64,000 nt of DNA from Acidimicrobiales bacterium (GCA_965209115.1 CBDBQD010000002.1:327890-391889); one strand, 5' to 3'. Numbered from the stretch's first letter, positions 34,464 through 62,757 are shown. Made by a program: numbers and translations. Notes: generated by a model from the letters alone, not told the origin.

Positions 34464-34615
34464 GGCCGGAGACGGCGCGGCCGGTTGCGGCCGGAATGGT
34501 CAGTGTGTGGAGTCACCGGCCGGAGGGTACTCAGAGGACGAGAGCGGTGTGGGCCTCGATCTGGTGCGGTCCGATTGGCGGCGGTCGCGTGGTCGCGACG
34601 CCTTGCCGGGCAGGA

Positions 34616-35469: not shown

Positions 35470-35479
35470 GCGGCGAGTG

Positions 35480-35560
35480 TAGCACGATCCGATAGATTAT
35501 AATGAGTTTCCATTAGTGTCGATAAGTTCTGTGACGATTGTCAATCGACACCGCCTGCTG
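35480..35560 (-). promoter_or_regulatory. AT-rich promoter-like patch with TATAAT and a 13-bp palindrome
   Basis: On the minus strand, ...tcgattgacaatcg...cattataatctatcggatcg... precedes ATG 35469. The palindrome cgattgtcaatcg is at 35535-35547. The flanks are about 70% GC. Confidence 0.4.
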
Positions 35561-35649
35561 ACCGCTACGCGGCCGACCCAGCGGTGCGCGCCCCGCCGAC
35601 CGGGAGTCGGCGACGCGCTCGAGGAGCACCGAGGCCCTCGGATCGGCGA

Positions 35650-36975
35650 TCACGTTCTCGCCCTCCGGCGCGCTGGCTTCGCCGGCTGGGAGGCGGCGAT
35701 CCGCTCGAGGAGCACCGACGCAGGCTCATCGTCAGGATCCTGCGGCACCAGCCGACCGGAGAACGCAGCAGCGAGCACCGACCGGCGGAGTGCAGCAATG
35801 CGGTCGAAGGCGAGGCTGAGTGTTGCCCGCGATTGCTCGACTGCCTGCATCCGTTGGTCGATCCGTGCAACCACATCGTCTTGGACCGCCAGCGGCGCGA
35901 CCGGAATCGGGAAACGGGCAAGCCCTTGCTTGCCAAGGTGGCGGATGTTGACCCCGCGTCCAGCCTCACCGAACGCACCGCGTAGTGCGGAAAGGTAGCA
36001 ATACCAATAGAGATAGCGAAGACTGACGGCTCTTGGCCGCAGCCGGAGCAGAGTGTTCTGAAAGCAGCAGTTCGCGATCTGTCCGTCCCAGATTGCTGGC
36101 TTGCCGACTTCGTTAGGACTGCCAGAAGCCTCGTTGAGCAACAGATCTCCTCGGGTCAGCCGGTACTTCTCGAAGTCAGCACCGCCAAAGTTCATTGTCT
36201 TCACGTCATCGAGAACGATGCCCTCCCAGGAAACGTTGGCGGATCTCAAGTACGGGCGCATTTGCTCACCAGAATGATGCTGAGGCGAACGCTGCCGACC
36301 AAGCTGTACGCTGGCGACCTGCGAGATTGTCATCTCCCGCCAGCCATCGGGAAGTTGGCGCTGGGCGTGGAAGGCCTCGGCGAGGATCGATGATCTGAGG
36401 CTGTCGAGTCGGGTCAGGCTCTGGCGTAACGTGGCCTCGGCGGCGTCGAGGCGGGAGAAGTGCTCTTCGATGGCAGCAACGATCCGCTTCTGCTCCGCAC
36501 CAGGGGCAATCGGGATCGGGAATCGGGCGAGGCCTTGCTTGCCGAGATGCCTGATGTTCACGCCCCGACCAGCATCGCCGAAGCGACCACCTCGGGCCGA
36601 TAGATGGCAGTACCAGTACACGTATCCTCGATCGAGTTCGTGCGTCTGAAGGCGCAGCAGCGTGTTCTGGAAGCAGCAGCCGTCGATCTCGCCGCGCCAA
36701 ATCGCGGGCTTGCCGACCTCATTCGGGCTGCCTGACGCCTCATTGAGCAGGAGGTCGCCAGCCCGGAGCCGGTACTTCTCAAAGTCAGCATCGTCGAAGT
36801 TCATTTCCTTGACGTCGCCAAGGTCGATCCCGCTCCAAGTGACGTTGGCCGATCGGAGGTACGGGCGCATCTGATCACCCGTGTGGTGTTGCGGGGAACG
36901 CTGGCGGCCCAGCTGTACTTCAGCAACGTCGGACATGTTCGCCCATGCCCAGCCGGAGGGCAGCGCGTCGCTCAC
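35650..36975 (-). CDS. hsdS: type I R-M specificity subunit with two closely similar target-recognition halves
   Basis: Two halves share LGRQRSPQHH.G.QMRPYLRSANV.W...DLLLNEASGSPNEVGKPAIW...CCFQNTLLRL...GVNIRHLGKQGLARFPIP. GTG 36975 overlaps the hsdR stop (GTGA). Confidence 0.88.
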   Translation of the reverse strand: MSDALPSGWAWANMSDVAEVQLGRQRSPQHHTGDQMRPYLRSANVTWSGIDLGDVKEMNFDDADFEKYRLRAGDLLLNEASGSPNEVGKPAIWRGEIDGCCFQNTLLRLQTHELDRGYVYWYCHLSARGGRFGDAGRGVNIRHLGKQGLARFPIPIAPGAEQKRIVAAIEEHFSRLDAAEATLRQSLTRLDSLRSSILAEAFHAQRQLPDGWREMTISQVASVQLGRQRSPQHHSGEQMRPYLRSANVSWEGIVLDDVKTMNFGGADFEKYRLTRGDLLLNEASGSPNEVGKPAIWDGQIANCCFQNTLLRLRPRAVSLRYLYWYCYLSALRGAFGEAGRGVNIRHLGKQGLARFPIPVAPLAVQDDVVARIDQRMQAVEQSRATLSLAFDRIAALRRSVLAAAFSGRLVPQDPDDEPASVLLERIAASQPAKPARRRART

Positions 36976-39791
36976 GCCACCAGTACCTCCATCAGTTCGT
37001 CCATCAGGGGCGTGAGTTCTTCTCCGAAGAGTTGGAGGGCGCGGCCGTAGCCGCCGTGGGTGCTGAACGGAGGGTTCCTGAAGTCGTACGGGGCGATCAT
37101 CAGGCTCGTTGCCAGGTGATCGCGGATCAGGCGGAGGTAGGCGACCTGCTCGTCTGTGAATGCACGGCCGGCGTTTCGCTGCTGCTGAAGCCACGCCTCG
37201 AAGCGCTCGTTGACCAGGTCGGGGTAGGCGACCAACTCATCGGTCCGGCCGAGCGCGTAGCGGACGAGGCTGACGAGGTCGGTGTTCACGCGGTGGCCTG
37301 AGCCGCGCACCTTGTTGGCGTCGAGGCTCTCGTAGGCGGCCCATAGGTCTTTGGTGGTCCAGCGGTGGGGTGGGCGGGCGATGGCGTTGGCCAGTTCCTT
37401 GACGTCGGTATAGGTGAACCCGCCACGGGGTTGGCCATAGAGCACCTGGAGGGCGGTGATCTGGTCGCGGTTCTCTTCGATGAACTTTCGGAACGACTCG
37501 ACTTGGCGGCGGGCCCTGTCGGTGGCGTCGACGGAGAACCCTTCGGAGATGACCGTATCGGGTGAGGCCGAGTCGATCATCTGCTCGTAGCTTCGGCGGA
37601 CCTCGATCAGCTTCTGCCGCAACTCCGGGTTGCCGGCCAGCGGCTCCAGGGCCTGGCGGACGATCCTCTCTCGGGCGGCGGCGACCTGCTCGACGGAGGG
37701 ATCATCGGTGCCGACGGCCTCGGCGGCGGCTTCGATGTGCCGGTCGGGGTCGAGCGCCTCCACCAGTTGATGGGCCAAAGCGCTGAGGCTCATGCCGGCG
37801 ATCTTCTCCACTTCGGCGCGGTCTTCGGCGGTCATGCGCTGGTCGAGTCGGGCGAGGCGTGACGCCACCGACGACACGGTGGCCTCGTCGGTGGAGCCGA
37901 GACCGATGCGGGCCAGGAGTTGGTCGAAGCTCTCGTGGCGGTTGCGTTCGAGCGGCACGGTCTCGGGCAGGTCGTCGTCGGTCACGCCGACGGCGTCGAC
38001 GAGCACGAAGCGGTCCTTGACGGTGGCGTCGGGGGTGACGGCCCGGAGGTCGTTGGGGTCGATGACCCGCACGCCGCGGCCCTTCATCTGCTCGAAGTAG
38101 TTGCGGCTGCGCACCCGGCGCATGAACACCACGCACTCGATGGGTTTCACGTCGGTGCCGGTGGCGATGAGGTCCACGGTCACCGCGATGCGGGGGTTGT
38201 AGGCGTTGCGGAACTGCGCCAGCAGGTCCTCGGGGCGGTGGCCGGCGTCGCCGGAGCGGTAGGTGATCTTCACCGCGCTCTCGTTGCCGAGACCGAACTC
38301 CTCGCGCACGATCTGGACGATGTCATCGGCGTGGCTGTCGTCCTTGGCGAAGATCAGCGTCTTGGGGACGTGACGCAGCCTCCCGTCCGAGCGCCGCTCG
38401 CGGTCACCGAACATCGTCGGCAGCGAATCCCGCAACGTCGCCACAATTGTGCGGATCTGGTCGGGCGCCACCACCCGGCGGTCCAACTCGGCGGCGTCGT
38501 AGTCCACATCCTCATCGACGAGCTCGAGGCGCTGGGAGCGGGTCAGGCGGTCGCGGAACTCCGTGACGAACCCGGCGCGCACGGTGCCGCCGCCCTCGCT
38601 GATCTCGGTGCGGATCCGGAACACGTCGAAGTCCACGTTCACCCGGTCCGCCACCGCCTCCGCGTGGCCGTACTCGGTGACCAGGTTCTGCTCGAAGAAC
38701 GCGAAGGTCTGGATGCCCGGCGTGGCGGTCAGGCCGACGATGAACGCGTCGAAGTACTCCAGCACCTGCCGCCACACCCCGTAGATGGAGCGGTGGCACT
38801 CGTCGACGACGATCACGTCGTAGGACTCGACGGGCACCGCCGGGTTGTACACCACCTCCACCGGCTGCTCCGGCGCCACCTCGAAACCGGACCGCTCGTC
38901 GACGGCCTCGTCGATCTCCTCGCCCCCCAGCAGCGAGTGCAGCCGCTGGATCGTCGAGACGTGCACCTTCGTGGCCCCCTCGGTCGCCATGTCGAGGCGC
39001 GAGGAGGTGAGCCGGCGCACGTTGTACAACTCGGTGAACTTCCGGCCGTCATCAGGCGTGTCGAAACCCTCGAACTCCCGCACGGCCTGGCGGCCCAGAT
39101 TCGCCCGATCCACCAGGAACAGCACACGCCGCGCCCCGGCATGGCGCACCAGCCGATAGATGGCATTGACGGCCGTGAAGGTCTTCCCCGCACCCGTGGC
39201 CATCTGGATCAGCGCCCGCTGCCGGTTGTCCCCCAGTGACACCTCGAGGCTTCGGACCGCCTCGGCCTGGGCGGGCCACAGCCCTCGGAGATCCAACTCG
39301 GGCAGCAACCGCAGGCCGGCGCGCAACGTACCGGCGCCAGTCTCCACGTGGTCGATGACCCACCGGGCCAGCGTCTCCGGCCGGTGGAAGCCGAACACCC
39401 GCCGGGACGTCGGCACCGGATCCAGGCCGCACGTGAACCGGGTCTCGACGCCGGTGGACTCGTAACCGAACGGCAAAACGCCGTCCACCTGGAAACTCGG
39501 CAACTCTCCGGGATACGACTGCTGGTATCCCAAAGTCTGCGCCTCCACGCCCGTCAGCGTCGTCCCCACAGGCTTGGCCTCGATCACCCCCACCGCCTGG
39601 CAGTCCACGAACAGCACATAATCCGCCCGCCCCGCACCGACCGGCACCTCCCTCACCGCCACCCCCCGAGCCGCAGCCACCGCCGCAGACTTGTGATCCT
39701 GCACCACCCAACCACACGCCGCCAACTGCGCGTCAATGTCCCGCCGAGCCTCCTGCTCCGGCGTGAGCCCGCCCGCGGAATGGTCAGTCAT
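36972..39791 (-). CDS. hsdR: type I restriction enzyme R subunit
   Basis: N-terminal EQEARRDIDAQLAACGW, Walker A MATGAGKTFTAV, DEAH-type VVDECHRS, and a long helical C-terminal domain. ATG 39791 (MTDHSAGG) is preferred over the track start at 39875. Confidence 0.92.
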   Translation of the reverse strand: MTDHSAGGLTPEQEARRDIDAQLAACGWVVQDHKSAAVAAARGVAVREVPVGAGRADYVLFVDCQAVGVIEAKPVGTTLTGVEAQTLGYQQSYPGELPSFQVDGVLPFGYESTGVETRFTCGLDPVPTSRRVFGFHRPETLARWVIDHVETGAGTLRAGLRLLPELDLRGLWPAQAEAVRSLEVSLGDNRQRALIQMATGAGKTFTAVNAIYRLVRHAGARRVLFLVDRANLGRQAVREFEGFDTPDDGRKFTELYNVRRLTSSRLDMATEGATKVHVSTIQRLHSLLGGEEIDEAVDERSGFEVAPEQPVEVVYNPAVPVESYDVIVVDECHRSIYGVWRQVLEYFDAFIVGLTATPGIQTFAFFEQNLVTEYGHAEAVADRVNVDFDVFRIRTEISEGGGTVRAGFVTEFRDRLTRSQRLELVDEDVDYDAAELDRRVVAPDQIRTIVATLRDSLPTMFGDRERRSDGRLRHVPKTLIFAKDDSHADDIVQIVREEFGLGNESAVKITYRSGDAGHRPEDLLAQFRNAYNPRIAVTVDLIATGTDVKPIECVVFMRRVRSRNYFEQMKGRGVRVIDPNDLRAVTPDATVKDRFVLVDAVGVTDDDLPETVPLERNRHESFDQLLARIGLGSTDEATVSSVASRLARLDQRMTAEDRAEVEKIAGMSLSALAHQLVEALDPDRHIEAAAEAVGTDDPSVEQVAAARERIVRQALEPLAGNPELRQKLIEVRRSYEQMIDSASPDTVISEGFSVDATDRARRQVESFRKFIEENRDQITALQVLYGQPRGGFTYTDVKELANAIARPPHRWTTKDLWAAYESLDANKVRGSGHRVNTDLVSLVRYALGRTDELVAYPDLVNERFEAWLQQQRNAGRAFTDEQVAYLRLIRDHLATSLMIAPYDFRNPPFSTHGGYGRALQLFGEELTPLMDELMEVLVA

Positions 39792-39914
39792 GGTGCCGAT
39801 CCGGGAGACGGTAGTGGCTGCTCCGGAATGACTCTCATGCTGCAAGGGATGCCGCCGGTGGTGGGTCCGAGACAATGGAATGCCGGCCGGGTTGCCCTGC
39901 GCGCGATCACTAGG

Positions 39915-54344: not shown

Positions 54345-55538
54345 TCACGGCGCGGTTGGAAGTGCCGGGACGGCTCGTTTGAGGTATTCGTCGAACTTGG
54401 GGACGGTGAAGGCGGCGTAGCCGTGGCCGGCTGCGTACAGGAGCCCCTTGTCGATGAGTTGTCGTCGGGTGGGGCCGCACTGCGTCGACGACCGGGCGAG
54501 CCGCCCGGCCACGTCTCGGGCGAGTTGCGGTCCGGGGCCCAGTTCGGCCATTGCTCGCAGGTAGGTTCTCTGCAGTTCGGTGGCGCGGTCGAGGCGGACC
54601 TTGAAGAACCCGGAGTCGAGTTTGTCCTCGACGACCGCCGTGGCGATCTCGGCGTCGCGTTCGACTACGGGGCTGCGGGCCGCGGTGGCCCACACGGCCT
54701 GCCCGAATTCCTGCAGGAAGTAGGGGTAGCCCTCGGAGAAATCCAAGCCTCGATTCACGGCGGCATCACTGAATTCGACGCCGTGCTGCGCTGCCGGCTC
54801 GCGCAGCACGCGCGCCGCATCATCGGAGTCGAGGCGGCCGAGTTCGGGGAACACGAACAGTCGCTCGGCGTAGGTCTTGGCGTTGCCGACGAGTTCGTGG
54901 ATCTGCGGCAGGCCCGCGGCGGCGACCGTGATAGGCAGGGCGTGCTGAACGGTTCGATGAAGTGCGGCTATGAGGGCTTCCATCTGCCTGCTGCTCAGAT
55001 AGTGGAGTTCGTCGAGCAGCAGGACCACGCCTGTCCCCCGGTCCCGCGCCCCCTCGCCGAGGCTCACGAGCAGGTCGGTCAGGTCGGCGTTGAGGTCCCC
55101 GCTGTCAGCCAAGCCCGCCGACGGGTCTACGTCGAGCCCCACGGTCAGGAGCCCTTCCGGGTCGATTCGCAGCGTGAACGACCGCAACGTCCCCGCGGCC
55201 CGCTTCAACGCTTCGGTCCATCTTCCGGCGAAGGCGAGTTGGTGCAGCACCCGGCGGACTTCTCGCGCCAGTCCGGCGCGGAACTCCGAATCATCCCACT
55301 TGGCCACCTCGAGCTCCACCGAGCGCCATCCCAGGTCGAGAGCGAGCCGGCGGAACTCGCCGAGCAGGACCGTCTTACCGACACCGCGCAGCCCCACGAC
55401 GATCAGCGACTGTTCGGTGTGACCTGCGGCCAGTCGGCTCAGGAGAACGTCGAACGCGGCGATTTCACCGTCCCGACCGACGAGGACGGGCGGCTTGGCC
55501 CCGGCGTTGGGGGTGTAGGGATTGGTTCGGGGATCCAC
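54345..55538 (-). CDS. orphan AAA/STAND-like ATPase with a C-terminal winged-helix region
   Basis: Walker A GLRGVGKT, Walker B VVLLLDELH, C-terminal ...RTYLRAMAELGPGP...LIDKGLLY. Confidence 0.8.
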   Translation of the reverse strand: MDPRTNPYTPNAGAKPPVLVGRDGEIAAFDVLLSRLAAGHTEQSLIVVGLRGVGKTVLLGEFRRLALDLGWRSVELEVAKWDDSEFRAGLAREVRRVLHQLAFAGRWTEALKRAAGTLRSFTLRIDPEGLLTVGLDVDPSAGLADSGDLNADLTDLLVSLGEGARDRGTGVVLLLDELHYLSSRQMEALIAALHRTVQHALPITVAAAGLPQIHELVGNAKTYAERLFVFPELGRLDSDDAARVLREPAAQHGVEFSDAAVNRGLDFSEGYPYFLQEFGQAVWATAARSPVVERDAEIATAVVEDKLDSGFFKVRLDRATELQRTYLRAMAELGPGPQLARDVAGRLARSSTQCGPTRRQLIDKGLLYAAGHGYAAFTVPKFDEYLKRAVPALPTAP

Positions 55539-55654
55539 AGCACGACCAACTGTAGCGCAGTGTGAGGGCTGTGAACAGGAATTTATCGTCGTTATCTTAG
55601 TTTATTCCTAACGCATAAATCGCACTAAAGATGATAAAGCCAAGGGCGGCGGCG

Positions 55655-56232
55655 TCAGGCGTTCACGACGGCGTCCATCCAGTCGGCCACGAAGGCCGGG
55701 CCGTCGGCCGCCGAGCAGACCCGCATGTTGGGGCGGCGCTCGGGGTGGTCGATGGTGCGGAGGATCTGCCCCTCGTACTCGACGGCGATGCTTGCGTTCC
55801 GCAGGGTGGCGTGGGCGCCGCCGAGGGCGACGTGCACGGCGAGCGGGTCGTGGAGGTAGGTGCGCTCGTCGAAGTGCGAGCCGTCCAGGCCGTACTTCGC
55901 CGCGAAGTCACCGAACGGGTCGCGCATCTCCTCGATGAGCCGGACCAGCTTCTGGGAGACGGGGCCGCCGTCGCCGGCTAGGCGGTCCCGGTCGGCACGG
56001 TCGAGGTAGACCTGCAGGGTCACCTCCAAGGGCACGAGCGTGATGTCCAGCCCCGACCCCAACACGATGGCGGCGGCGAGCGGGTCGGAGTTGAGGTTCG
56101 TCTCGAAGCTCGCCGGCCAGGCGACCATGTGCCGCTCCACGATCCCGCCCATGATCGTCACCGGGCCGAGTGCGCCGGCCAGCCCGGGTTCCATCTGCAG
56201 CGCCAGCGCCAGGTTCGTGACCGGCCCGACCG
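55655..56232. repeat. direct repeat copy 1 (identical to 63423-64000)
   Basis: By-eye comparison finds no mismatch. Identity begins exactly at the stop codon of the hydrolase gene and runs to the window end. Confidence 0.85.
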
Positions 56233-56614
56233 TCAGCACCGCCAACGGGTCTCGGGTCCCTTCGGCGGCATCGATGATGAACCGGGCCGCGTCCTCGCGG
56301 GTCGGCTCGTCGTCGGGCACCTGCCGCTCGGCGTCGGTCAGCACGCCGGCGCCCTCATGGCCCCACATCTCGTTCCAGTGGAAGCCGTCGACGCTGCTGC
56401 GGCGCAGCGGTGTCGAGCGCCCGGCCACGACAGGCACATGCCGCTTGTCGGACACCTCGAGCAGCGATCGGGCGATGGCGGCCCGCAGCGGGGCGTGACC
56501 GTGGACGGTCGTCACCCCGACCAGATCCGCATCCGGCCGGGCAATCAGCAGCGCCAGCGCCAGCGCATCGTCCGCATCGGTGCCGATGTCGGTGTCGAGC
56601 AGCACTTCGGCCAT
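55655..56614 (-). CDS. nucleoside hydrolase (IunH/Rih family), copy 1
   Basis: DTDIGTDADDALALALL N-terminal Asp cluster; full length 319 aa. Confidence 0.9.
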   Translation of the reverse strand: MAEVLLDTDIGTDADDALALALLIARPDADLVGVTTVHGHAPLRAAIARSLLEVSDKRHVPVVAGRSTPLRRSSVDGFHWNEMWGHEGAGVLTDAERQVPDDEPTREDAARFIIDAAEGTRDPLAVLTVGPVTNLALALQMEPGLAGALGPVTIMGGIVERHMVAWPASFETNLNSDPLAAAIVLGSGLDITLVPLEVTLQVYLDRADRDRLAGDGGPVSQKLVRLIEEMRDPFGDFAAKYGLDGSHFDERTYLHDPLAVHVALGGAHATLRNASIAVEYEGQILRTIDHPERRPNMRVCSAADGPAFVADWMDAVVNA

Positions 56615-56663
56615 GGCGAGACGCCCTTTCGTTTGGTGACAACTTACGTGACTAGTTGAGCTT

Positions 56664-57283
56664 TGAATCGCACTGGGTTTGGTGGAGACTCGGTTTATTG
56701 GTTTCCAACCGGTTCACGGTCGGTCTGTTGGGCAGCGTAGGCCGCCTCGAATTCTGCCGGGGGTATGTCGCCGAGGTGGCCGTGGAGGCGCTGGGTGTTG
56801 TGCCAGTGCACCCAGGCGAGGGTGGCGAGTTCGACGTCGCCGACGCTGCGCCGAGGGCCCCCGGTGGGGCCGCGGATCAGTTCGGTCATCACACCAGTGG
56901 CGGTCGAGCTCCGCCGCGAAGAAAGCCGAAGCCGACTTCAAGATCGCGTTCGCCCGGCGCAGCTCCCGGTTCTCCTGCTCGAGTTCTCTGATCCTCTGAC
57001 GATCCTCCGTCGTCAGACCCGCCGCGGCGCCGTCGTCGATGTCGGCCTGTGCGACCCACTTGCGCACCGACTCGACGCCGACGCTTGACTGGTCCGCCAC
57101 CCGCCGCACCGTCCCGCGGCTCGCGCCCAGCTCGGCGCGCAACGCCCGCACCAACCGCACCGCCTGGGCCTTCTCCACCTCCGAATACCGGCGCGAAGAC
57201 CCCCTACCTGCTGAATGTCCAGATGCTATGACCCCATTCTCGCTTCCAAGCTCAGGAGCCTCCACCGAACCCAGTGCGAATCA
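56664..57283. mobile_element. internally deleted IS3-family element with both terminal inverted repeats
   Basis: Ends are TGAATCGCACTGGGTTTGGTGGAGACTC (56664-56691) and the reverse complement of 57256-57283 (TGATTCGCACTGGGTTCGGTGGAGGCTC). Inside are an OrfA-like HTH/leucine-zipper ORF and only the last 60 aa or so of OrfB. Confidence 0.8.
56714..57265 (-). pseudogene. IS3 OrfA joined to the residual OrfB C-terminus
   Basis: RRYSEVEKAQAVRLV...VESVRKWVAQA...RIRELEQENRELRRANAILKSASAFFAAELDR (OrfA). A separate frame at 56695..56892 encodes LATLAWVHWHNTQRLHGHLGDIPPAEFEAAY (integrase C-terminus). Confidence 0.75.
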
Positions 57284-57342
57284 TGGGAGCCGTGCGGTCG
57301 GGCTGGTCGGTGGGGCGTTCGCGCGGCTGTGGCGCGCGGTGC

Positions 57343-57371
57343 TTGACATCCCCGGGGGGGGGGGGATACTT
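57343..57371 (+). promoter_or_regulatory. promoter-like TTGACA - G12 tract - GATACT upstream of the large secreted-protein gene
   Basis: TTGACA at 57343-57348. The spacer tcccc + G-run places G12 at 57354-57365. GATACT is at 57365-57370 (16-nt spacer), or ATACTT with a 17-nt spacer. The element is about 95 nt before ATG 57465. Confidence 0.45.
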
Positions 57372-57464
57372 TCCCGCCCGGTCGGCCGGAAGGGTGTCGT
57401 GTCGGCCGCGTCCGGCTCCGCCTGCGGGCCGCGCCCAAGCCGACCTGACGGAGCGCACGTTGCC

Positions 57465-60398
57465 ATGAACTGCCGGATCCGCTTCGTCGCGGTGGTCGTG
57501 GCTGCGGTGCTGGCCGGGTCGTTGGCGCCGGCGGCGGCTTCCTCGCCGGCGGCGGCGCAGGAGCAGACGTCCTGGTATGTGAACGACGATCCGGTCCTGA
57601 ACGGGCCGTCGCGGTACTGGTACCGGGGTGAGGCCGGTCACGGGTTCGGGTCGAACGGCTACGTGTACACCTACGGGATCGCGGGGGAGTCGAGCGCGGA
57701 CAACTGGGCGCGCTGGTCGATGGGCCGCCGGGTGGGCCGCCAGGAGATCCAGGCGTACGTGCCGAGCAATCACGCCACGGCCACGGTGACCTACCGGATC
57801 GACGTCGGCGGCCGGGAGCACACGCGGCGGGTGGCGCAGCGCGACGTCTCCGGTTGGACGTCCCTGGGCGGCTACGACGCCGACGGGGCGCTGGTGACGG
57901 TCACCGTCCGGGACAACGAGGCGTCTCAGCACCACGCTCGCCACGGGCTCGCCGCGAGCCGCATCGGCGTGGACGCCATCCGGATGCGCTGCATCAGTCG
58001 CTGCGGTTCCGCCTCGCCCCCGCCGCCCGATCTGCCGCCCGCGCAGCCCGCTCCGCCGCCGTCTTCGCCGCGGTCCGGGTCGTCGCCGTACTGCGATGTG
58101 ATCTCGGCGGGCACCTTCGGCGGCGTGCAGAACCAGTCGGGTTTCTTCGCCGGTGGCTCCTGGTCCGATCATCATTGGCCCCATGATCATTGTTCACCCG
58201 TGAACGTTTCGGGCCGCCTCACGCAATTGTTCGAGTTCTCTCTGTCCTCCGAGGATGAGGTCACGATCGGTCTGGAGTCCTCCGACGCCGACACGTCCCT
58301 GTCCTTGTCCGACGCCCGGGGTCGGGTGATCGCAATCGACGACGACGGCGGTTCGGGCACGAACTCGCGCATCACGGCAACTCTCGCCGCCGGCACGTAT
58401 CTGGTCGAGGCCGCCTTCGACATCGAGAGCGAATCCGGGGGCTACCAATTCTCCATTGAGACCGGGCCAGGGACTCGTTCGTCGGCTCGCCCGGCCTCGC
58501 GGCAGCAGGATCCCGGGCCGTCTTCGGGGCAATCCGGGCCTGTGGCTGGCTGCGGTGTGATGCACCTCGGCACAATTGGTCCGGAACTCGGCGTTTTCGT
58601 CGATTCGGCCAATGGTCCTTGTCCGTCGGGGAACCAGACCTACCCTCACACGGGCGTGTTCGAGTTCGCACTCGCCGCCGAGTTCAAAGTCGATATCTCT
58701 CTGGAGACCCAGGAGGGTGATGAAAGGCACTTGTCACTGTCGGACGCAGAGGGTCAGGTCCTAGCGACCGGTGAAGTCGGCGGTTTCCAGGATGGCACTT
58801 GGTTGCCGTTGCTGAACTATTCGTCTATTTGGATGACGCTCCCCGCCGGCACGTATCGTATCGAGGCCGCGTCTTCGGAGTCTGCCGCGCCCTACGACAG
58901 TTATCCCGACGGCGGGGGTGGATTCTTGCTCGGGATCTACGTCTATGCGACCAACGAGCAGAACGACGACGGCCGTCGCTCACCGGACTCTGACGCGGAC
59001 GCCGGCCGAGCCACCGACCCGCCGCCGACTCCTCAACCAATGCCGCAGCGCACTGACTGGGTCGCGGAAATCCTTCAGTCTCTGCGTGAGTCCTTGCGTG
59101 AGTTCCTTGAGTTCACCGGTTCGCAACCAGAACCGGAAGACACCGACTGCGACAAGCCGCCTGGCAACAAGTATGAACGCAAGAGAGACGGTGAAGGCTG
59201 GTGGGGGGCTCTCACTGCCGAGCACCGCGTCTTCGCCCTGCAGACCTTCACGACAATTGACGGCGCTCGCGTGGAGGCTGGGACGAAGGGCGGAGAGGTG
59301 CAGCACAATCACACAAATCTCTCACAATCGGGCTGCTCGTGGATCGCCCTCGGTGCGAAGGCGAATACCAAAACGAGAGTCTCGGGGAATGCTCTCGTGA
59401 AGGGAAAGGCTGAAGTGCTGGATCGGGCAAAGGTCTACGGGAACGCTCAGGTGTACGGCGATTCCAGGGTAGTCGACGATGCCCGGGTCTACGGGAACGC
59501 TCAGGTGTACGGTGAAGCCAAGGTCTACAAGAATGCGGAAATCTATGGCGACGCTGCCATTCGTGATAGGGCACGAATTTATGGAAACGCCAAGGTGCAC
59601 GAAAATGCAAGGGTGACCGGTAACGCACGAGTCTACGGTTTGGCCGAGGTCACTGGAAGTGTGAGTTGCATAAACATAAACATAAACAACGAGAGGATCT
59701 ATGAGAGGGCAGATTGTCGGGGCGATGAGATCAAAATCGAGCCTGTGGTGACCGACGATGCTCGCGTTTACGGGAACGCGAAGGTTTCGGGTAGTGCGCG
59801 AATCGTCGGGAACGCTAAGGTTTTCGGAGACGCGGAAGTAACTGGCACAGCATTAATATTTGGCGATATGGAGATTGACTCAGACGTCTACGACGGAACC
59901 CAAGAGTACAGAAGAATCGCAGAAGAGATATTCAATAATGTCTATGCTGAGCTACACTCACAGCTCAAAGAGGATTGTCCAAAAGAAATTTCTGAAGATG
60001 ATCTCACGAACCTTACAATGTCTCTCCTGAAGGGCACTAAATCTGGTTCTGTCGAGGAGGCGATCAATTCCGGTTGTGAAAGGAATAAGTTCATTAATGC
60101 TGCTGGGAGAGCTTTGCTGCCGAGCGCGTGGGAATTTTTCGCCGAGCTAGCTCTTCCTTTGGTGAAAGCCTCGAACCTCAAAAGGCTCGAGCAGGTTGCA
60201 GATCTATTGGAGCTAGCGAAGCTGGCGCATGATGCTCGTGAAGTCGGCAAATTAGCTGACACCGTTGAGACCTTGGATGAGACCTTGGAAAAATTGGATG
60301 AGACCTTGGAAAAATGGGGCATTTCGGAGGCAGAGTTAGAGTCATACAACAATAAGGTTCGTGAAGAATACGAAAGACTGTTGGAGGCCGGCGGATAA
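57465..60398 (+). CDS. large secreted multidomain protein: conserved N-terminal module, 2 PPC-like domains, hexapeptide beta-helix, helical C-terminus
   Basis: Signal peptide MNCRIRFVAVVVAAVLAGSLAPAAASSPAAAQ. PPC-like blocks (...TIGLESSDADTSLSLSDARGRVIA...AGTYLVEA...YQFSI, and a second). 13+7 hexads of A.VYGN type at about 59379-59880. GGAG lies 12 nt before the ATG. The track start at 57039 crosses the IS end. Confidence 0.8.
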   Translation: MNCRIRFVAVVVAAVLAGSLAPAAASSPAAAQEQTSWYVNDDPVLNGPSRYWYRGEAGHGFGSNGYVYTYGIAGESSADNWARWSMGRRVGRQEIQAYVPSNHATATVTYRIDVGGREHTRRVAQRDVSGWTSLGGYDADGALVTVTVRDNEASQHHARHGLAASRIGVDAIRMRCISRCGSASPPPPDLPPAQPAPPPSSPRSGSSPYCDVISAGTFGGVQNQSGFFAGGSWSDHHWPHDHCSPVNVSGRLTQLFEFSLSSEDEVTIGLESSDADTSLSLSDARGRVIAIDDDGGSGTNSRITATLAAGTYLVEAAFDIESESGGYQFSIETGPGTRSSARPASRQQDPGPSSGQSGPVAGCGVMHLGTIGPELGVFVDSANGPCPSGNQTYPHTGVFEFALAAEFKVDISLETQEGDERHLSLSDAEGQVLATGEVGGFQDGTWLPLLNYSSIWMTLPAGTYRIEAASSESAAPYDSYPDGGGGFLLGIYVYATNEQNDDGRRSPDSDADAGRATDPPPTPQPMPQRTDWVAEILQSLRESLREFLEFTGSQPEPEDTDCDKPPGNKYERKRDGEGWWGALTAEHRVFALQTFTTIDGARVEAGTKGGEVQHNHTNLSQSGCSWIALGAKANTKTRVSGNALVKGKAEVLDRAKVYGNAQVYGDSRVVDDARVYGNAQVYGEAKVYKNAEIYGDAAIRDRARIYGNAKVHENARVTGNARVYGLAEVTGSVSCINININNERIYERADCRGDEIKIEPVVTDDARVYGNAKVSGSARIVGNAKVFGDAEVTGTALIFGDMEIDSDVYDGTQEYRRIAEEIFNNVYAELHSQLKEDCPKEISEDDLTNLTMSLLKGTKSGSVEEAINSGCERNKFINAAGRALLPSAWEFFAELALPLVKASNLKRLEQVADLLELAKLAHDAREVGKLADTVETLDETLEKLDETLEKWGISEAELESYNNKVREEYERLLEAGG
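57554..57920. repeat. dispersed repeat shared with 52127-52492 (diverged in patches)
   Basis: Long identical runs, e.g. gtgaacgacgatccggtcctgaacgggccgtcgcggtactggtaccggggtga and gggatcgcgggggagtcgagcgcgga. Confidence 0.8.
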
Positions 60399-61016
60399 TC
60401 GCCGCGGACCGGCGCCGACCATGGCCGGTCCGGTCAGGGGCAGGTACACGTGCCGGAAGACCCGCCAGGCGCCGGCGCCGTCGATGGACGCGGCCTCGGC
60501 GAGCTCCGCGGGGATGTCGAGGTAGAACTGGCGCAGCAGGAAGATCGCCAGCCCGTTGCCCACCCCCGGCAGGATCAGGCCGATGTAGCTGTTGTCCAGC
60601 CCCACATCGCGCGCGGCGTCGGCCAGGGGGATCGCCAGCGCCTCGAACGGCACCATGAAGGCCAGCACGACCAGGGCGAAGACGAACCCGCGGCCTCTGA
60701 AGCGGAACGCCGTCAGCCCGTAGGCCGCCATGGCGGATATCAGCACGCCCACGGCGACCGTGGCGCCCGCCACGATCAGCGAGTTGAGAATGGCGCGCCC
60801 CAGCGTGCCGTGGGCGACCGCCGCCACGTTCTCGGCGGTGACCGCGTCGGGGATGAACGTGCGCCACTCCAGGCCCCGGAAGGACTGGAACACGGCGTTG
60901 GCGGGGCGGAGCCCGGAGGCCACGGTCCAGGCCAGCGGCGCCAGCCACAGGATCGCGAAGACGGGCACGAGCACCACCAGGGGCGCCCGGCCCCAGCGCG
61001 GCATGTCAAGACGCAT
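60399..61016 (-). pseudogene. 3'-truncated carbohydrate ABC transporter permease (MalG-like)
   Basis: Has the EAA-loop region EAASIDGAGAWRVFRHVYLPL but lacks the last TM segments. The reading frame runs into the AT-rich 3' end of the large gene. Confidence 0.7.
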
Positions 61017-61416: not shown

Positions 61417-62757
61417 TCATGCCTCCCACAGGTATGACAGCGGCAGGGCGCCGATCCGATCGGAGAGCCTGTGCGGATGCTGGCCGGCGTAGAGCACGAT
61501 GCCGACGTCGAAGCGGTCGCCGATGAGATCACGCAGCCACACGAGCCAGCGGGCGTCGGAGGGGCGGGCGGTGGCACCGGCCTTGGTCTCCACCGCGATG
61601 ACTCGCCCGTCGGGGCGCTCCATCAGCAGATCCACCTCACGGCCCCGGGAGTCGCGGTAGTGGCAGAAGCGCAGCTCCGGCGCGAGCGCGGAGGCCTGCC
61701 GACGGAGCTCGTTGAAGACGAACGTCTCATGCAGTGGTCCGCGGTGGGCAGCAGCCGGGTCGCTCAACGACTCGGTATCGACACCCAGCACGGCAGCGGC
61801 CAGTCCGGTGTCGGTGAGGTGGATCTTCGAGCGGCGCTTGGCTCTCGTCGCCGCGCCCGGGGCCCAGCCCTCCAGCCGGGCCACGAGGTGGGTCATCTCC
61901 AAGTACGACAGGTAGTCCGCGGTGGTGCCGATGCTGCCGAATCCCACATCACGGTGAAGGTCCTGTACGACAAGCTCCCCGGCGGTGCGAGCCGCCACCG
62001 CGTGCAGCAGTCGAGGCAACTCGCTCGATCGCCTTGCCCCCGTCAGCTCGACGATGTCACGAGTCACGGCTGTGTGGACATACGCCCGGAACCACAGCTG
62101 CCGGTCAGCGTCCGGCAGGCCGATCACCTCCGGGTAGCCGCCCCGGCACACCCGCTCGGCGTACTGGGAGCGGCTGAGCGCCGACGGCGGCGACCGCAGC
62201 AGGTCACTCAAGGCGGCGCGCGGCTCATCGAGCAGCCGCGCCAGCAGCCCGTCGCCGCCGTCATCCATCTCAACCTGCGAGAATGGGGTGAGCTCGAAGA
62301 ACACGGCCCGTCCGGCCAGCGACTCCGACAGCACCGGGACATGCAGGAAGCCGGCCGAGCCGGTGAGCAGGAACCGGCCGGGCACCGGGTCGGCGTCGAC
62401 GGCCAGCTTGATCGCCCGCACCAGGTCGTCGCCGCCGCGCTGCACCTCGTCGATGACGGTGGGGCGGGGCCGGTCGGACACGAACCCCGCCGGATCGTCG
62501 CGAGCCAGCGCCGCCAGAGTCGGATCGTCAAGACTCAGGAACGCCCGGTCAAGACTGATGGGCTTGCCGTCAAGGCTGAGAAGCCTGCCGTCAAGAGTCA
62601 GGAATGCTCCGTCGGCCGCGATCCGGTGTGCCAGCGTGGTCTTGCCCGACTGGCGCGGCCCCTGCAGGACCACCACCCGGAACGTGTCGAGCGCGCGTCG
62701 CAGCACCGGCTCTATCTGACGCTGCACCAGCGCCTGTCGCTCCTGCCTAAGTGGCAC
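61417..62757 (-). CDS. AAA_14/DUF4143-type ATPase
   Basis: Walker A GPRQSGKTT, Walker B VIDEVQ, C-terminal DUF4143-like ...EVDLLMERPDGRVIAVETK. Confidence 0.82.
   Translation of the reverse strand: MPLRQERQALVQRQIEPVLRRALDTFRVVVLQGPRQSGKTTLAHRIAADGAFLTLDGRLLSLDGKPISLDRAFLSLDDPTLAALARDDPAGFVSDRPRPTVIDEVQRGGDDLVRAIKLAVDADPVPGRFLLTGSAGFLHVPVLSESLAGRAVFFELTPFSQVEMDDGGDGLLARLLDEPRAALSDLLRSPPSALSRSQYAERVCRGGYPEVIGLPDADRQLWFRAYVHTAVTRDIVELTGARRSSELPRLLHAVAARTAGELVVQDLHRDVGFGSIGTTADYLSYLEMTHLVARLEGWAPGAATRAKRRSKIHLTDTGLAAAVLGVDTESLSDPAAAHRGPLHETFVFNELRRQASALAPELRFCHYRDSRGREVDLLMERPDGRVIAVETKAGATARPSDARWLVWLRDLIGDRFDVGIVLYAGQHPHRLSDRIGALPLSYLWEA
62527..62610. repeat. four imperfect in-frame 21-bp tandem repeats inside the DUF4143 ATPase gene
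   Basis: Units are gtcaagactcaggaacgcccg / gtcaagactgatgggcttgcc / gtcaaggctgagaagcctgcc / gtcaagagtcaggaatgctcc. They encode FLTLDG RLLSLDG KPISLDR AFLSLDD. Confidence 0.8.

What the first reader, a model, noticed from the sequence alone, without database searches (positions are those of the whole stretch)
57465..60398. Chimeric large secreted protein: host-GC N-terminus, progressively AT-richer PPC domains, hexapeptide beta-helix and helical tail
Seen: the protein has a signal peptide and the shared N-terminal module (to about 57920). It then has a Pro-rich linker and two PPC-like domains (about 58218-58460 and 58650-58950). An acidic/Pro linker follows, then two blocks of strict six-residue repeats (AKVYGN AQVYGD SRVVDD ARVYGN AQVYGE AKVYKN AEIYGD ..., 13+7 hexads, about 59379-59880). 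The tail is Lys/Glu-rich and helical, about 170 aa, with a tandem TLDETLEK repeat. Codon composition changes visibly along the gene: GC-rich like the host up to about 58.1 kb, intermediate to about 59.3 kb, then many aaa/gaa/att/tta codons to the stop. The AT-rich end abuts a truncated permease gene directly. Established: hexad repeats of this type form left-handed beta-helices, and PPC domains are accessory domains of secreted proteases and adhesins. Inference: the gene was assembled by grafting foreign 3' sequence onto a resident 5' module, as in polymorphic toxin or adhesin families. No catalytic domain or immunity gene is recognisable, so the function is open (fibre, adhesin, effector).
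Basis: partly seen in the sequence, partly recalled or inferred. Interest (0 to 1): 0.7.

Follow-up and report, generated by a model that had tools for sequence, protein, structure and literature searches.

The report
Variable modular secreted protein gene
This is a real, intact gene for a large secreted multi-domain binding protein of a sponge-associated actinobacterium; its AT-rich 3' end is a strain-variable cassette exchanged by recombination and its promoter carries a slippery run of 12 G, so it looks like a variable surface protein and not a toxin.

Summary
The gene 57465-60398 encodes 977 aa: signal peptide, shared N-terminal module, two PPC domains, a hexad beta-helix and a helical tail. 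Third-position GC (GC3) falls from 0.94 to 0.75, 0.64 and 0.51, against 0.81-0.93 in neighbouring genes. The 3' end directly abuts a truncated permease gene.

The gene is modular and recombining. In a strain 99% identical upstream, the last ~600 nt are an old, divergent allele (dS about 0.5-1 against 0.01). However, the same GC3 decline occurs in six other family genes whose C-terminal modules are only 28-48% identical. No close foreign donor was found. The cap, solenoid and tail form one conserved unit (80 clusters in 1.84 billion proteins). A single recent foreign graft is therefore unlikely.

There is no toxin domain and no co-varying immunity gene.

New here:
- The N-module folds like a CBM6/35 lectin domain.
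- The solenoid is YdcK-like.
- A G12 tract sits in the promoter spacer. G9-G21 tracts (C23 in one locus) precede family genes in six other loci, which suggests phase-variable expression.

Best reading: a lineage-specific, variable surface or adhesion protein family. Function is inferred, not shown.

The parts
57343..57372 (+). Sigma-70-like promoter: TTGACA (57343-57348), a spacer containing the G12 tract, and -10-like GATACT/TACTTT
   Evidence: Best promoter match of the region, 10 of 12 positions. The same TTGACAT...G(n)...TACTTT..GCCCGG context stands upstream of orthologues in L004 and L005.
57354..57365 (+). G12 homopolymer in the promoter spacer; candidate slipped-strand switch
   Evidence: It is the only homopolymer of 8 or more in the 64 kb. 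G9-G21 tracts (C23 in L006) precede family genes in L002, L004, L005 (two), L006, L009 and L011 (two). No other G or C run of 9 or more occurs in 185 kb.
57465..60398 (+). Coding sequence, 977 aa plus stop
57465..57554 (+). Sec signal peptide (residues 1-30)
   Evidence: Sequence features and hydrophobicity. Conserved in homologues such as P0002.
57555..57998 (+). N-module (residues 31-178): CBM6/CBM35-like beta-sandwich, weakly Golvesin_C-like; GC3 0.94
   Evidence: AlphaFold2 pLDDT 92. Top Foldseek hits are CBM35 and CBM6, E 8e-5 and TM 0.57-0.62. Golvesin_C matches below threshold in homologues. Shared by about 45 proteins.
57999..58076 (+). Cys/Pro-rich linker (residues 179-204)
   Evidence: Read from the translation
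58221..58409 (+). PPC domain 1 (residues 253-315)
   Evidence: PF04151, 30.9 bits against a cut-off of 25.9
58620..58871 (+). PPC domain 2 (residues 386-469), divergent
   Evidence: Internal repeat of PPC1: 44% identity, E 2e-13
58947..59159 (+). Acidic/Pro-rich linker with a short helix (residues 495-565)
   Evidence: Translation. This segment differs in haplotype L007.
59160..59378 (+). YdcK-type N-terminal cap of the solenoid (residues 566-638)
   Evidence: phmmer to PDB 2f9c/2pig, E 1.2e-13. NF040481 YdcK_fam residues 587-801, E 3e-15. pLDDT 85-94.
59379..59666 (+). Left-handed beta-helix, block 1: 16 hexads (residues 639-734)
   Evidence: The number of repeats differs between strains.
59667..59753 (+). 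29-aa loop with two Cys that interrupts the solenoid (residues 735-763)
   Evidence: low pLDDT
59754..59864 (+). Left-handed beta-helix, block 2: about 6 hexads (residues 764-800)
   Evidence: (PF18836 at residues 766-779)
59865..60395 (+). Helical tail domain with two invariant Cys (residues 801-977); GC3 0.51
   Evidence: Alignment A3 has invariant G, E, C and C. There are 80 representative clusters in 1.84e9 proteins. The domain is always C-terminal and, where the upstream part of the protein is on record, preceded by cap and solenoid. No sequence match in the PDB.
59798..60394 (+). Allelic cassette: allele A (window, L008) against allele B (L001, L007)
   Evidence: Nucleotide identity is 58-92% inside the cassette. 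It is at least 95% between 59558 and 59797, 100% over most of 59000-59491 (a hexad indel lies at 59492-59557), and 95-100% downstream. dS is 0.47-1.08 inside against 0.01 upstream.
60342..61016 (-). Truncated ABC-transporter permease gene abutting the stop codon
   Evidence: BPD_transp_1 positions 1-119 of 184. The junction is the same in L001, L007 and L008.
52127..52532 (+). Paralogous N-module fragment: no signal peptide, last beta-strands missing, directly after the pterin dehydratase gene
   Evidence: The same structure is present in L012-L014.
52427..53332 (+). Second AT-rich ORF (301 aa, GC3 0.54) following that fragment in another frame; orphan
   Evidence: The only homologue is P0236 from the same sample series.
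56714..57265 (-). IS3-type transposase (HTH_Tnp_1) fragment upstream of the promoter
   Evidence: Strain L012 carries a different IS-type sequence from 57274 onward.

Best explanation
**What it is.** The gene encodes a Sec-exported, non-enzymatic, modular binding protein. The host is a sponge-associated member of Acidimicrobiales. The protein belongs to a lineage-specific family defined by an N-terminal CBM6/35-like lectin module.

**Architecture.** Behind that module the protein carries two PPC beta-sandwich domains. A fixed C-terminal unit follows: a YdcK-type cap, a left-handed beta-helix rod and a helical tail with two invariant cysteines, inferred to form a disulfide.

**How the gene evolves (shown).**
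- It is a mosaic kept in flux by homologous recombination.
- The N-module is homogenised with paralogues and has host-like GC3.
- The solenoid changes its repeat number between strains.
- The last ~0.6 kb segregates in the population as two old alleles within an otherwise ~99% identical locus.
- The 5'-to-3' fall in GC3 is a property of the whole family, not the scar of one recent import.

**Why the 3' end is AT-rich (inferred).** The fast-evolving or repeatedly exchanged 3' modules escape the forces that keep GC3 high in this genome. Alternatively, they circulate in a lower-GC gene pool.

**Expression (inferred).** Transcription probably starts at a promoter whose spacing depends on a G12 tract. 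Slipped-strand changes would then switch or tune expression.

**Function (inferred).** The protein is a surface or matrix adhesin-like molecule. Its exposed variable end is under frequency-dependent selection from phage, host cells or neighbouring bacteria.
For: **Domains**
- (YdcK-like solenoid).
- (N-module with CBM6/35 fold).
- (second PPC domain and hexads).
- Golvesin-type domains are grouped with CBM6/35/36-like lectin domains in PMC9166713.

**Family**
- The N-module occurs with many partner domains.
- The tail occurs only as cap-solenoid-tail, in 80 clusters, 22 of them also with the N-module and others with FN3, RCC1 or LRR.
- Sponge Acidimicrobiia are reported to be enriched in fn3 and LRR proteins (PMC11706023).

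**Composition**
-.
- The same gradient appears in 7 of 7 family genes examined.

**Recombination**
- Sharp block of divergence at 59798-60394.
- dS 0.47-1.08 inside against 0.011-0.021 upstream; dN/dS 0.59 in the tail.
- Allele A is recovered in L008. Allele B is recovered in L001 and L007, on two different upstream haplotypes.
- Sites in the L001 N-module match the paralogue, with dS 0.08 there.
- Orthologues at a syntenic locus (P0007 and P0008) are 78% identical in the N-module but 36-48% downstream.

**Promoter**
-.
- Spacers to the conserved TACTTT are 15, 17, 18 and 19 nt in four related genes.
- In L011, two paralogues have G9 and G11 between identical 25-nt flanks.
- There is precedent in an actinobacterium for homopolymer tracts in promoter spacers (PMC4746626).

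**Coding status**
- The AT-rich part is kept open, P 6e-9 by chance.
Against: - Function is untested, and no partner or ligand is known.
- The last ~90 residues of the tail are modelled poorly (pLDDT below 50).
- dN/dS in the tail is below 1. Positive selection is therefore not shown; only old divergence and weak constraint are shown.
- The two alleles could come from a related species rather than from balancing selection within one species.
- No second sequence of this gene's own promoter was found, so length variation of this particular G tract is not shown.
- Homopolymer lengths in assemblies are error-prone.
- Strain L001 carries the gene without promoter and signal peptide. The gene may therefore be dispensable or inactive in part of the population.
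- The cause of the low GC3 is not resolved.
Confidence: 0.5

Rival explanations
1. One reading: a resident GC-rich 5' module received a recent graft of foreign low-GC DNA by horizontal transfer. This would give a one-off chimera of the polymorphic-toxin type.
For: - GC3 is 0.5 in the tail against about 0.9 in host genes.
- The 3' composition boundary falls exactly where a permease gene is truncated.
- The locus holds IS fragments and duplicated or truncated genes.
- A second N-module in the window is also followed by AT-rich orphan DNA.
- Cap-and-solenoid relatives are common in phages of low-GC hosts: phrog_7964 at 2e-64 and 71 phage records.
Against: - The same gradient is seen in six other family genes with C-modules only 28-48% identical. 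The low GC3 is therefore old and recurrent.
- Both tail alleles are AT-rich.
- The nearest relatives of the module are in the same clade. Outside hits are 31-46% identical and never include the tail.
- N-module and C-module co-occur in 22 clusters.
- The GC3 steps (about 58.0 kb and about 59.5 kb) do not coincide with the recombination breakpoint at 59.8 kb.
Confidence: 0.2
2. The cap-solenoid-tail unit is not an exposed variable tip. It is a shared C-terminal oligomerisation or cell-envelope attachment domain that displays diverse passenger domains, as sorting or anchor domains do in other bacteria.
For: - The unit is always at the extreme C-terminus, behind very different N-terminal parts (FN3, RCC1, LRR, PPC).
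- Left-handed beta-helices commonly trimerise (established for the LpxA type; my own knowledge).
- The tail has a conserved hydrophobic helix after a P..W motif.
- Other family members end in true transmembrane-like segments: P0002 2.39 and P0022 2.32.
Against: - The hydrophobic helix of this tail type is too weak for a membrane span (1.06 here, 0.7-1.7 in relatives).
- An anchor would be expected to be conserved. Here it is the most divergent part between strains.
- The N-terminal lectin-like module is an equally good candidate for the attachment end.
Confidence: 0.2
3. It is a polymorphic toxin. The variable helical tail would be a cryptic toxin, for example a membrane-active one, with the immunity gene elsewhere.
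For: - Conserved N-terminal part and variable AT-rich C-terminal part.
- A fragmentary paralogue resembles an orphan module.
- Alleles are swapped by recombination.
- There is one invariant Glu and an amphipathic or hydrophobic helix in the tail.
Against: - No toxin family is hit in Pfam, NCBIfam or PADLOC.
- No ORF follows the stop codon. The flank is a permease remnant that does not co-vary with the tail allele.
- There are no Rhs/YD, PAAR, LXG, WXG or CdiA-type elements. Export is by a plain Sec signal.
- Neighbours of relatives are CAP-domain or housekeeping genes.
Confidence: 0.07
4. It is a decaying gene. The AT-richness of the 3' part would reflect relaxed selection and AT-biased mutation in a pseudogene-to-be.
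For: - Strain L001 lacks the promoter and signal peptide.
- The neighbouring family copies are frameshifted or truncated.
- dN/dS in the tail is raised, at 0.59-0.78.
Against: - 339 AT-rich codons contain no stop, P 6e-9 by chance; the other two frames of the tail have 7 and 17 stops.
- The invariant G, E, C and C residues are kept in both alleles.
- The end of the solenoid has dN/dS 0.02 despite saturated dS.
- The module is conserved in 80 clusters.
Confidence: 0.05

Closest known systems
YdcK (Salmonella/E. coli; PDB 2F9C, 2PIG; Pfam PF18836, NCBIfam NF040481)
   Same: Residues 566-800 share the characteristic N-terminal cap and the left-handed hexapeptide beta-helix. YdcK is the top hit both by sequence (E 1e-13) and by fold.
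   Different: YdcK is a 326-aa stand-alone cytoplasmic protein of unknown function; no functional paper was found. Here the domain is the C-terminal part of a secreted 977-aa protein and is followed by a helical tail with two invariant Cys that YdcK lacks. The match scores 55.8 bits against the family cut-off of 350.
Rhs / CdiA-type polymorphic toxins
   Same: - A conserved 5' part with host-like composition and a variable AT-rich 3' end.
- Exchange of the 3' end by recombination.
- Fragmentary paralogues nearby.

That Rhs tips are AT-rich is from my own knowledge.
   Different: No toxin domain, no immunity gene, and no YD, PAAR or haemagglutinin repeats. Export is by a plain Sec signal. The variable end belongs to one conserved structural family.
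Contingency loci with a homopolymer in the promoter spacer (Neisseria, Haemophilus and Bordetella fimbrial or outer-membrane genes; Cutibacterium acnes HPT_37)
   Same: - A G tract lies between the -35 and -10 hexamers of a surface-protein gene.
- Tract length differs between related copies, giving spacers of 15-19 nt.
- The actinobacterial precedent is PMC4746626.
   Different: The host is an uncultured sponge-associated Acidimicrobiales. Switching has not been observed. The tract marks a whole paralogous family in several genomes.
CBM6/CBM35-type and golvesin-type lectin modules (for example Clostridium thermocellum CBM35, PDB 2W1W; Bacteroides Cbeg4/5)
   Same: The N-module has the same beta-sandwich fold (TM 0.57-0.62), and homologues match Golvesin_C weakly.
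   Different: Sequence identity is 9-15%. No PDB hit was found by sequence profile. Sugar-binding residues and ligand are unknown. The module is N-terminal and attached to non-enzymatic partners.
Eukaryotic-like repeat proteins (fn3, LRR, cadherin) of sponge symbionts
   Same: The lineage and habitat are the same. Family members carry FN3, LRR and RCC1 arrays behind a signal peptide. Enrichment in sponge Acidimicrobiia is reported in PMC11706023.
   Different: This member has PPC domains instead of FN3. The N-module, the C-module, the poly-G promoters and the composition gradient did not turn up in my searches of the open literature held here.

Membership tests
Polymorphic toxin systems (Rhs, CdiA, LXG and similar) | Conserved N-terminal region with a variable C-terminal domain that differs between strains | tested here: met
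   The tail is 58% identical in protein between strains that are 99% identical in DNA upstream.
Polymorphic toxin systems (Rhs, CdiA, LXG and similar) | The C-terminal domain is a recognisable or demonstrable toxin | tested here: not met
   No toxin family in Pfam, NCBIfam, PADLOC or the PDB. The tail is one conserved helical family. Activity itself cannot be tested here.
Polymorphic toxin systems (Rhs, CdiA, LXG and similar) | Immunity gene directly downstream that co-varies with the toxin allele | tested here: not met
   The stop codon abuts a permease remnant on the other strand, which is 95-100% identical between alleles A and B.
Polymorphic toxin systems (Rhs, CdiA, LXG and similar) | Trafficking elements of a dedicated secretion system (YD repeats, PAAR, haemagglutinin repeats, LXG/WXG) | tested here: not met
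   Only a Sec signal peptide was found, and none of these families.
YdcK family (NF040481 / PF18836) | YdcK-type cap plus hexapeptide left-handed beta-helix | tested here: met
   PF18836 at 37.3 bits against a cut-off of 30. phmmer to 2f9c at 1.2e-13. Top Foldseek hits are 2f9c and 2pig.
YdcK family (NF040481 / PF18836) | Full-length equivalence to YdcK (NCBIfam equivalog cut-off of 350 bits) | tested here: not met
   55.8 bits, covering profile positions 22-243 of 326. The protein shares a domain with YdcK and is not an orthologue.
PPC (PF04151) domain proteins | PPC beta-sandwich domain above the gathering score | tested here: met
   PPC1 scores 30.9 bits against 25.9. PPC2 is detected only as an internal repeat, E 2e-13.
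CBM6/35-like or Golvesin_C lectin domains | The fold | tested here: met
   pLDDT 92. CBM35 and CBM6 are the top hits, with TM 0.57-0.62 and E 8e-5.
CBM6/35-like or Golvesin_C lectin domains | Sequence membership (Pfam gathering score) | tested here: not met
   No hit for the query. Homologues score 24.8 and 17.8 bits against a cut-off of 31.6.
CBM6/35-like or Golvesin_C lectin domains | Carbohydrate binding | not testable with these tools
   Needs glycan arrays or binding assays.
Phase-variable contingency locus (simple-sequence repeat in the promoter) | Long homopolymer between the -35 and -10 elements of the gene's promoter | tested here: met
   G12 at 57354-57365 lies inside TTGACA-N16/18-GATACT/TACTTT. 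It is the only run of 8 or more in 64 kb.
Phase-variable contingency locus (simple-sequence repeat in the promoter) | Tract length varies between closely related copies while the flanks stay the same | tested here: met
   L011 has G9 and G11 between identical 25-nt flanks. Orthologues carry G9, G11, G12 and G13 in the same promoter context. This is shown for relatives, not for this locus.
Phase-variable contingency locus (simple-sequence repeat in the promoter) | Length heterogeneity within a population and an on/off change in expression | not testable with these tools
   No reads and no second contig cover 57275-57553.
Diversity-generating retroelement target | Template repeat and reverse transcriptase near a variable region | tested here: not met
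   The tail has no repeat elsewhere in the window. The differences between alleles include indels and are spread over 600 nt.

The most novel reading that the evidence does not exclude
The N-module genes would be a lineage-wide contingency-gene system of an uncultured, probably mutualistic sponge symbiont. It would have two parts. First, poly-G promoter switches act on many paralogues. Second, AT-rich 3' cassettes recombine and are kept as old balanced alleles. This would amount to programmed surface variation of the kind known from pathogens. The low GC3 of the cassettes would itself be maintained, for example because divergent alleles escape GC-biased gene conversion, or because AT-rich DNA recruits an Lsr2-type silencer. 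The cap-solenoid-tail unit would be a new kind of exposed recognition module.
Probability: 0.3. Interest if true: 0.75.

Novelty: new variant of a known kind. Interest (0 to 1): 0.55.

Why it matters
- **Sponge symbiosis.** Sponge-associated Acidimicrobiia are uncultured, and how they deal with host cells and phages is largely inferred from domain counts. This locus gives concrete, testable features: a secreted lectin-like protein family with slippery promoters, strain-specific C-terminal alleles, and an undescribed C-terminal domain (80 clusters among 1.84 billion representative proteins).
- **Stochastic surface variation.** If the poly-G tracts switch expression, such variation would extend to a non-pathogenic marine actinobacterial symbiont.
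- **Genome evolution.** The family-wide intragenic GC3 gradient (0.94 to 0.5 within 3 kb, repeated in relatives only 28-48% identical in the C-terminal module) is a clean natural case. It can be used to ask what keeps GC high in GC-rich genomes and what lets some segments escape.
- **Annotation.** A GC discontinuity inside a gene need not mean a recent foreign graft.

Tried and rejected
- **Assembly chimera:** rejected. Contigs from JGI samples 3300009928, 3300009929, 3300009936 and 3300009939 reproduce the gene, both tail alleles and the permease junction.
- **Amino-acid composition as the cause of AT-richness:** rejected. The shift is at third codon positions.
- **Search for a donor lineage:**
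  - Homologue search with residues 540-977 gave 1586 hits. The best outside the clade are 29-45% identical and cover the solenoid only.
  - The phage collection gave 71 records at 31-46% identity, none covering the tail.
  - The genome scan gave only two partial relatives, both Acidimicrobiales MAGs.
  - Two metagenome scans found nothing.
  - The exact protein is not on record.
- **Tail fold:** the sequence profile against the PDB gave nothing significant. The AlphaFold2 model is good for residues 813-885 and poor after that. Fold searches of the C-module model return only YdcK and LpxA-type helices.
- **Tail as a transmembrane anchor:** hydrophobicity of 1.06 is too low.
- **DGR:** no template repeat.
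- **Defence or toxin libraries:** no hit for the protein.
- **RNA genes and tRNA integration sites:** none in the window.
- **Immunity-like neighbour in relatives:** the neighbours are CAP-domain or housekeeping genes.
- **Literature:** nothing on YdcK function, and nothing on this family.

Full report

Yes. The mechanical ORF runs 57039-60398. The likely start is ATG 57465, preceded by GGAG, and gives 977 aa.

Residues 1-30 are a Sec-type signal peptide.

Nucleotides 57554-57853 repeat 52127-52426 at 87% identity.

Pfam calls one PPC domain (residues 253-315). The second is a divergent internal repeat (residues 386-469; 44% identity, E 2e-13).

- 16 in-register hexads at residues 639-734;
- a 29-aa loop with two Cys;
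- about 6 more hexads to residue 800.

The tail is helical in the model and carries the LDETLEK duplication.

GC3 is 0.92-0.98 for residues 1-175, 0.66-0.88 for residues 176-675, and 0.44-0.64 for residues 676-977. Neighbouring genes have GC3 0.81-0.93.

I scanned the window in 300-nt steps for the best-phase GC. The mean is 0.85 and the first percentile 0.57. The two lowest segments of the whole 64 kb are this gene's 3' part (0.51) and 52.4-53.7 kb (0.53), which follows the other N-module.

The shift is at synonymous positions, so amino-acid composition does not explain it. The AT-rich part is still coding: 339 codons contain no stop (P 6e-9 from composition), while the other two frames of the tail have 7 and 17 stops.

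The permease ORF 60342-61016(-) covers only positions 1-119 of 184 of its Pfam profile, and it overlaps the stop codon.

**2. What the parts are**

*N-module (residues 31-178).*
- With an alignment of 23 relatives it gives a confident model (pLDDT 92).
- The best structural matches are CBM35 and CBM6 carbohydrate-binding modules (E 8e-5, TM 0.57-0.62).
- Homologues match Pfam Golvesin_C below threshold. One paper places golvesin in a CBM6/35/36-like lectin group (PMC9166713).

*Residues 566-800.* These are a YdcK-type cap plus a left-handed beta-helix:
- PF18836 above threshold, and NF040481 at E 3e-15;
- phmmer to PDB 2f9c at 1e-13;
- 2f9c and 2pig as the top Foldseek hits.

YdcK itself has no known function.

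*Tail (residues 801-977).*
- It has no match in Pfam, NCBIfam or the PDB.
- It is nevertheless a conserved domain. An alignment of 14 tails has invariant G, E, C and C.
- A profile search of 1.84 billion representative proteins finds only 80 clusters.
- In those clusters the domain is always at the extreme C-terminus. Where the upstream part of the protein is on record, cap and solenoid precede it.
- So cap, solenoid and tail form one evolutionary unit, which I call the C-module.
- Its hydrophobic helix (LLPSAWEFFAELALPLV, score 1.06) is too weak for a membrane span.

**3. The family**

About 45 proteins share the N-module. They come from Acidimicrobiia or Acidimicrobiales MAGs, and one is named Candidatus Poriferisocius. 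Their partner domains include FN3, PPC, CHAP, amidase_3 and cutinase.

Twenty-two of the 80 C-module clusters also carry the N-module. Others carry FN3, RCC1 or LRR arrays.

Sponge-associated Acidimicrobiia are reported to be enriched in fn3 and LRR proteins (PMC11706023).

The closest N-module+PPC relatives are P0002-P0006, at 47-55% identity over residues 1-530. They end in other C-terminal modules.

The exact architecture N-module, two PPC domains and C-module was found only in the window and in one near-identical strain, P0001 on contig L001.

**4. The gradient belongs to the family**

In all seven family genes for which I obtained DNA, GC3 falls from 5' to 3':

| Segment | GC3 range |
|---|---|
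| N-module | 0.74-0.94 |
| Middle | 0.55-0.75 |
| Cap + solenoid | 0.50-0.67 |
| Tail | 0.47-0.60 |

The flanks have 60-70% GC.

The C-modules of these genes are only 28-48% identical to each other.

P0002 shows the same drop in a completely different C-terminal module.

P0007 and P0008 sit at syntenic loci whose flanking genes are 81-87% identical in DNA. The two proteins are 78% identical in the N-module, but 36% in the middle and 45-48% in the C-module.

The low GC3 is therefore old and recurrent. This argues against one recent graft from a foreign donor.

I found no donor:
- the best hits outside the clade are 29-45% identical and cover the solenoid only;
- phage proteins of PHROG families 7964 and 5070 share the cap and solenoid (E 2e-64);
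- in the phage collection the matches are 31-46% identical, and they never include the tail.

**5. Strain-level mosaic**

Contig L001 (JGI 3300009936) is 99.1% identical to the window over 1971 nt. In the 59-60.8 kb alignment the pattern is as follows:

| Region | Window against L001 |
|---|---|
| 59000-59491 | 100% (apart from alignment-edge gaps at the start) |
| 59492-59557 | 90-100%, with an indel of hexad repeats |
| 59558-59797 | 95-100% |
| 59798-60394 (ends at the stop codon) | 58-92%, with an indel in the LDETLEK repeat |
| Permease remnant downstream | 95-100% |

Further points on the alleles:
- L008 (sample 3300009929) carries the window's allele at 99.4%.
- L007 (sample 3300009928) carries the L001 tail at 98-100%, behind a third, divergent linker, cap and solenoid with fewer hexads.
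- Synonymous divergence is 0.011-0.021 for residues 179-778 and jumps to 0.47-1.08 from residue 779 onward.
- dN/dS is 0.02 at the solenoid end and 0.59 in the tail.

This is the signature of an old pair of alleles moved by homologous recombination. The exchange used the solenoid and the permease remnant as flanks, so it occurred between allelic loci.

Whether the alleles are held by balancing selection within one species, or are imported from a sister species, cannot be decided here.

**6. The locus**

The window holds a second, broken family copy:
- Its N-module starts at 52127, directly after the pterin-4a-carbinolamine dehydratase gene. It has no signal peptide and lacks the last beta-strands.
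- It is followed in another frame by a 301-aa AT-rich orphan ORF.
- The frame break is the same in three metagenome contigs.

ORF 53521-54300 resembles the C-termini of other family members: P0022, P0004 and P0026. A signal-peptide-like start at 53502 precedes it in another frame.

L001 joins the dehydratase flank directly to the window's 57.5-kb copy:
- This equals a 5.4-kb deletion between the two N-modules.
- The deletion removes the promoter and signal peptide.
- A few sites in the L001 N-module match the 52-kb paralogue, and dS there is 0.08. This fits gene conversion between paralogues.

An IS3-type fragment lies at 56714-57265, and strain L012 has a different IS-type sequence from 57274 onward.

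The nucleoside hydrolase gene is duplicated at 100% identity: 55655-56232 equals 63423-64000.

**7. Promoter**

Ninety-five nucleotides upstream of the ATG lies the best sigma-70-like match of the region: TTGACA, 16 nt, GATACT (or 18 nt to TACTTT).

Its spacer contains G12 at 57354-57365. This is the only homopolymer of 8 or more in the window.

The same context (TTGACAT, G tract, TACTTT, ..GCCCGG) stands upstream of related genes:

| Gene | Tract | Spacer to TACTTT |
|---|---|---|
| Window | G12 | 18 |
| P0002 in L004 | G13 | 17 |
| L005, first family gene | G9 | 19 |
| L005, second family gene | G11 | 15 |

Other loci have tracts in other promoter contexts:
- L011 has G9 and G11 upstream of two family genes, between identical 25-nt flanks.
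- L009 has G12.
- L002 has G21.
- L006 has C23.

All lie upstream of family genes. No other G or C run of 9 or more occurs in the 185 kb examined.

Homopolymer tracts in promoter spacers that alter expression are documented in an actinobacterium (PMC4746626). Switching at this locus is inferred, not shown.

**8. Most likely mechanism**

*Shown:*
- The protein is exported, multi-domain and non-enzymatic, with a lectin-like N-module, two PPC domains, a rigid beta-helix and a C-terminal helical domain whose two invariant cysteines suggest a disulfide.
- The 3' end is exchanged between strains by recombination.
- The family has G tracts in its promoters.

*Inferred:*
- The protein binds glycans, and possibly matrix proteins. 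PPC-containing C-terminal segments of some collagenases bind collagen, according to the abstract of PMC6168687.
- It is displayed or released at the cell surface.
- Its variable end is under frequency-dependent pressure.
- Its expression is stochastic.

*Cause of the low GC3.* I consider two candidates:
- escape of fast-diverging cassettes from GC-biased conversion or selection, under AT-biased mutation;
- repeated exchange with a lower-GC pool.

Neither was tested.

**9. Comparison with known systems**

- **Rhs- or CdiA-type polymorphic toxins.** The resemblance lies in the conserved 5' part, the variable AT-rich 3' part, recombination and fragmentary paralogues. It fails on toxin domain, immunity gene and trafficking elements.
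- **YdcK.** The protein contains a YdcK-like domain but is not a YdcK orthologue (55.8 against 350 bits).
- **Promoter-repeat contingency loci.** The sequence criteria are met. The population and expression criteria could not be tested.

**10. Verdict**

The finding is not a one-off chimera. It is one member of an uncharacterised, recombining and probably phase-variable family of secreted proteins in sponge-associated Acidimicrobiales.

I rate it a new variant of a known kind (variable surface-protein or contingency genes), of moderate interest.

**11. Dead ends**

- The exact protein is not on record.
- Two metagenome scans returned nothing.
- The genome scan gave two partial relatives.
- There are no RNA or tRNA genes in the window.
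- Viral and PDB fold searches of the C-module gave only beta-helix proteins.
- No literature on YdcK function or on this family was found.

Noticed in passing
window 57354-57365; L002 4785-4805; L004 5888-5900; L005 1474-1482 and 7889-7899; L006 7893-7915; L009 2319-2330; L011 3964-3972 and 8076-8086: Poly-G tracts (G9-G21; C23 in L006) lie 70-470 nt upstream of genes of the N-module family in every locus that has upstream DNA. They occur nowhere else in 185 kb. Four related promoters have spacers of 15, 17, 18 and 19 nt to a conserved TACTTT. This looks like family-wide phase-variable promoters.
   Followed up: partly
L001 1-120 against window 52046-52145 and 57554: In one strain the gene is joined directly to the 3' flank of the pterin dehydratase gene. 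This equals a 5.4-kb deletion between the two N-modules, and it removes the promoter and signal peptide. The N-module there lies in frame with the dehydratase stop codon TGA, and the first possible start is the GTG of 'VNDDP'.
   Followed up: partly
window 52427-53332: An AT-rich 301-aa ORF (GC3 0.54; chance of staying open 7e-7) follows the truncated N-module. It has two hydrophobic helices near its end. Its only homologue among 5.8 billion proteins is P0236, from the same sample series.
   Followed up: partly
window 53502-54300: A start resembling the family's signal peptides (MKSRIHLV...) plus an FN3-like piece lie in one frame. In another frame (GC3 about 0.87) there is a C-terminal region similar to the ends of P0022, P0004 and P0026. 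This is probably a frameshifted family gene.
   Followed up: partly
window 55655-56232 and 63423-64000: The nucleoside hydrolase gene is duplicated at 100% identity from its stop codon to the end of the window. The two copies bracket the IS fragment, the gene studied here, the permease remnant, an AAA_14/DUF4143 gene and an ABC ATPase fragment (62971-63339). This is either a very recent duplication or an assembly repeat.
   Followed up: partly
window 61417-62757 (-); L004 4406-5674; L010 898-2493: An AAA_14/DUF4143 ATPase matches the PADLOC candidate defence family PDC-S01 (E 2e-133). A gene of this type lies near family genes in three of the loci examined.
   Followed up: no
window 57274 against L012 5165-5402: Strain L012 matches the window from 52111 to 57274 at 98.6% and then continues into a different IS3-type transposase gene. 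The DNA just upstream of the promoter is therefore an insertion hot spot.
   Followed up: no
window 34500-39875: A type I restriction-modification system: an HsdR-like gene at 36975-39875(-) and a specificity subunit at 35653-37194(-). Direct repeats of 244 and 197 nt lie in and next to the specificity gene (34651-35173, 36158-36963).
   Followed up: no
window 16086-19598 (-): A 1171-aa protein with a SpoIID domain and six FN3 repeats (276-nt tandem repeats at 16364-17972). It is another large repeat protein of the fn3 class enriched in sponge symbionts, but it lacks the N-module.
   Followed up: no
L002 and L009: The P0007 and P0008 genes lie at a syntenic locus (Fic, [amidase with N-module], family gene, CAP-domain protein, acetyl-CoA synthetase). 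Family genes there are tandem neighbours and diverge far faster than their flanks.
   Followed up: partly
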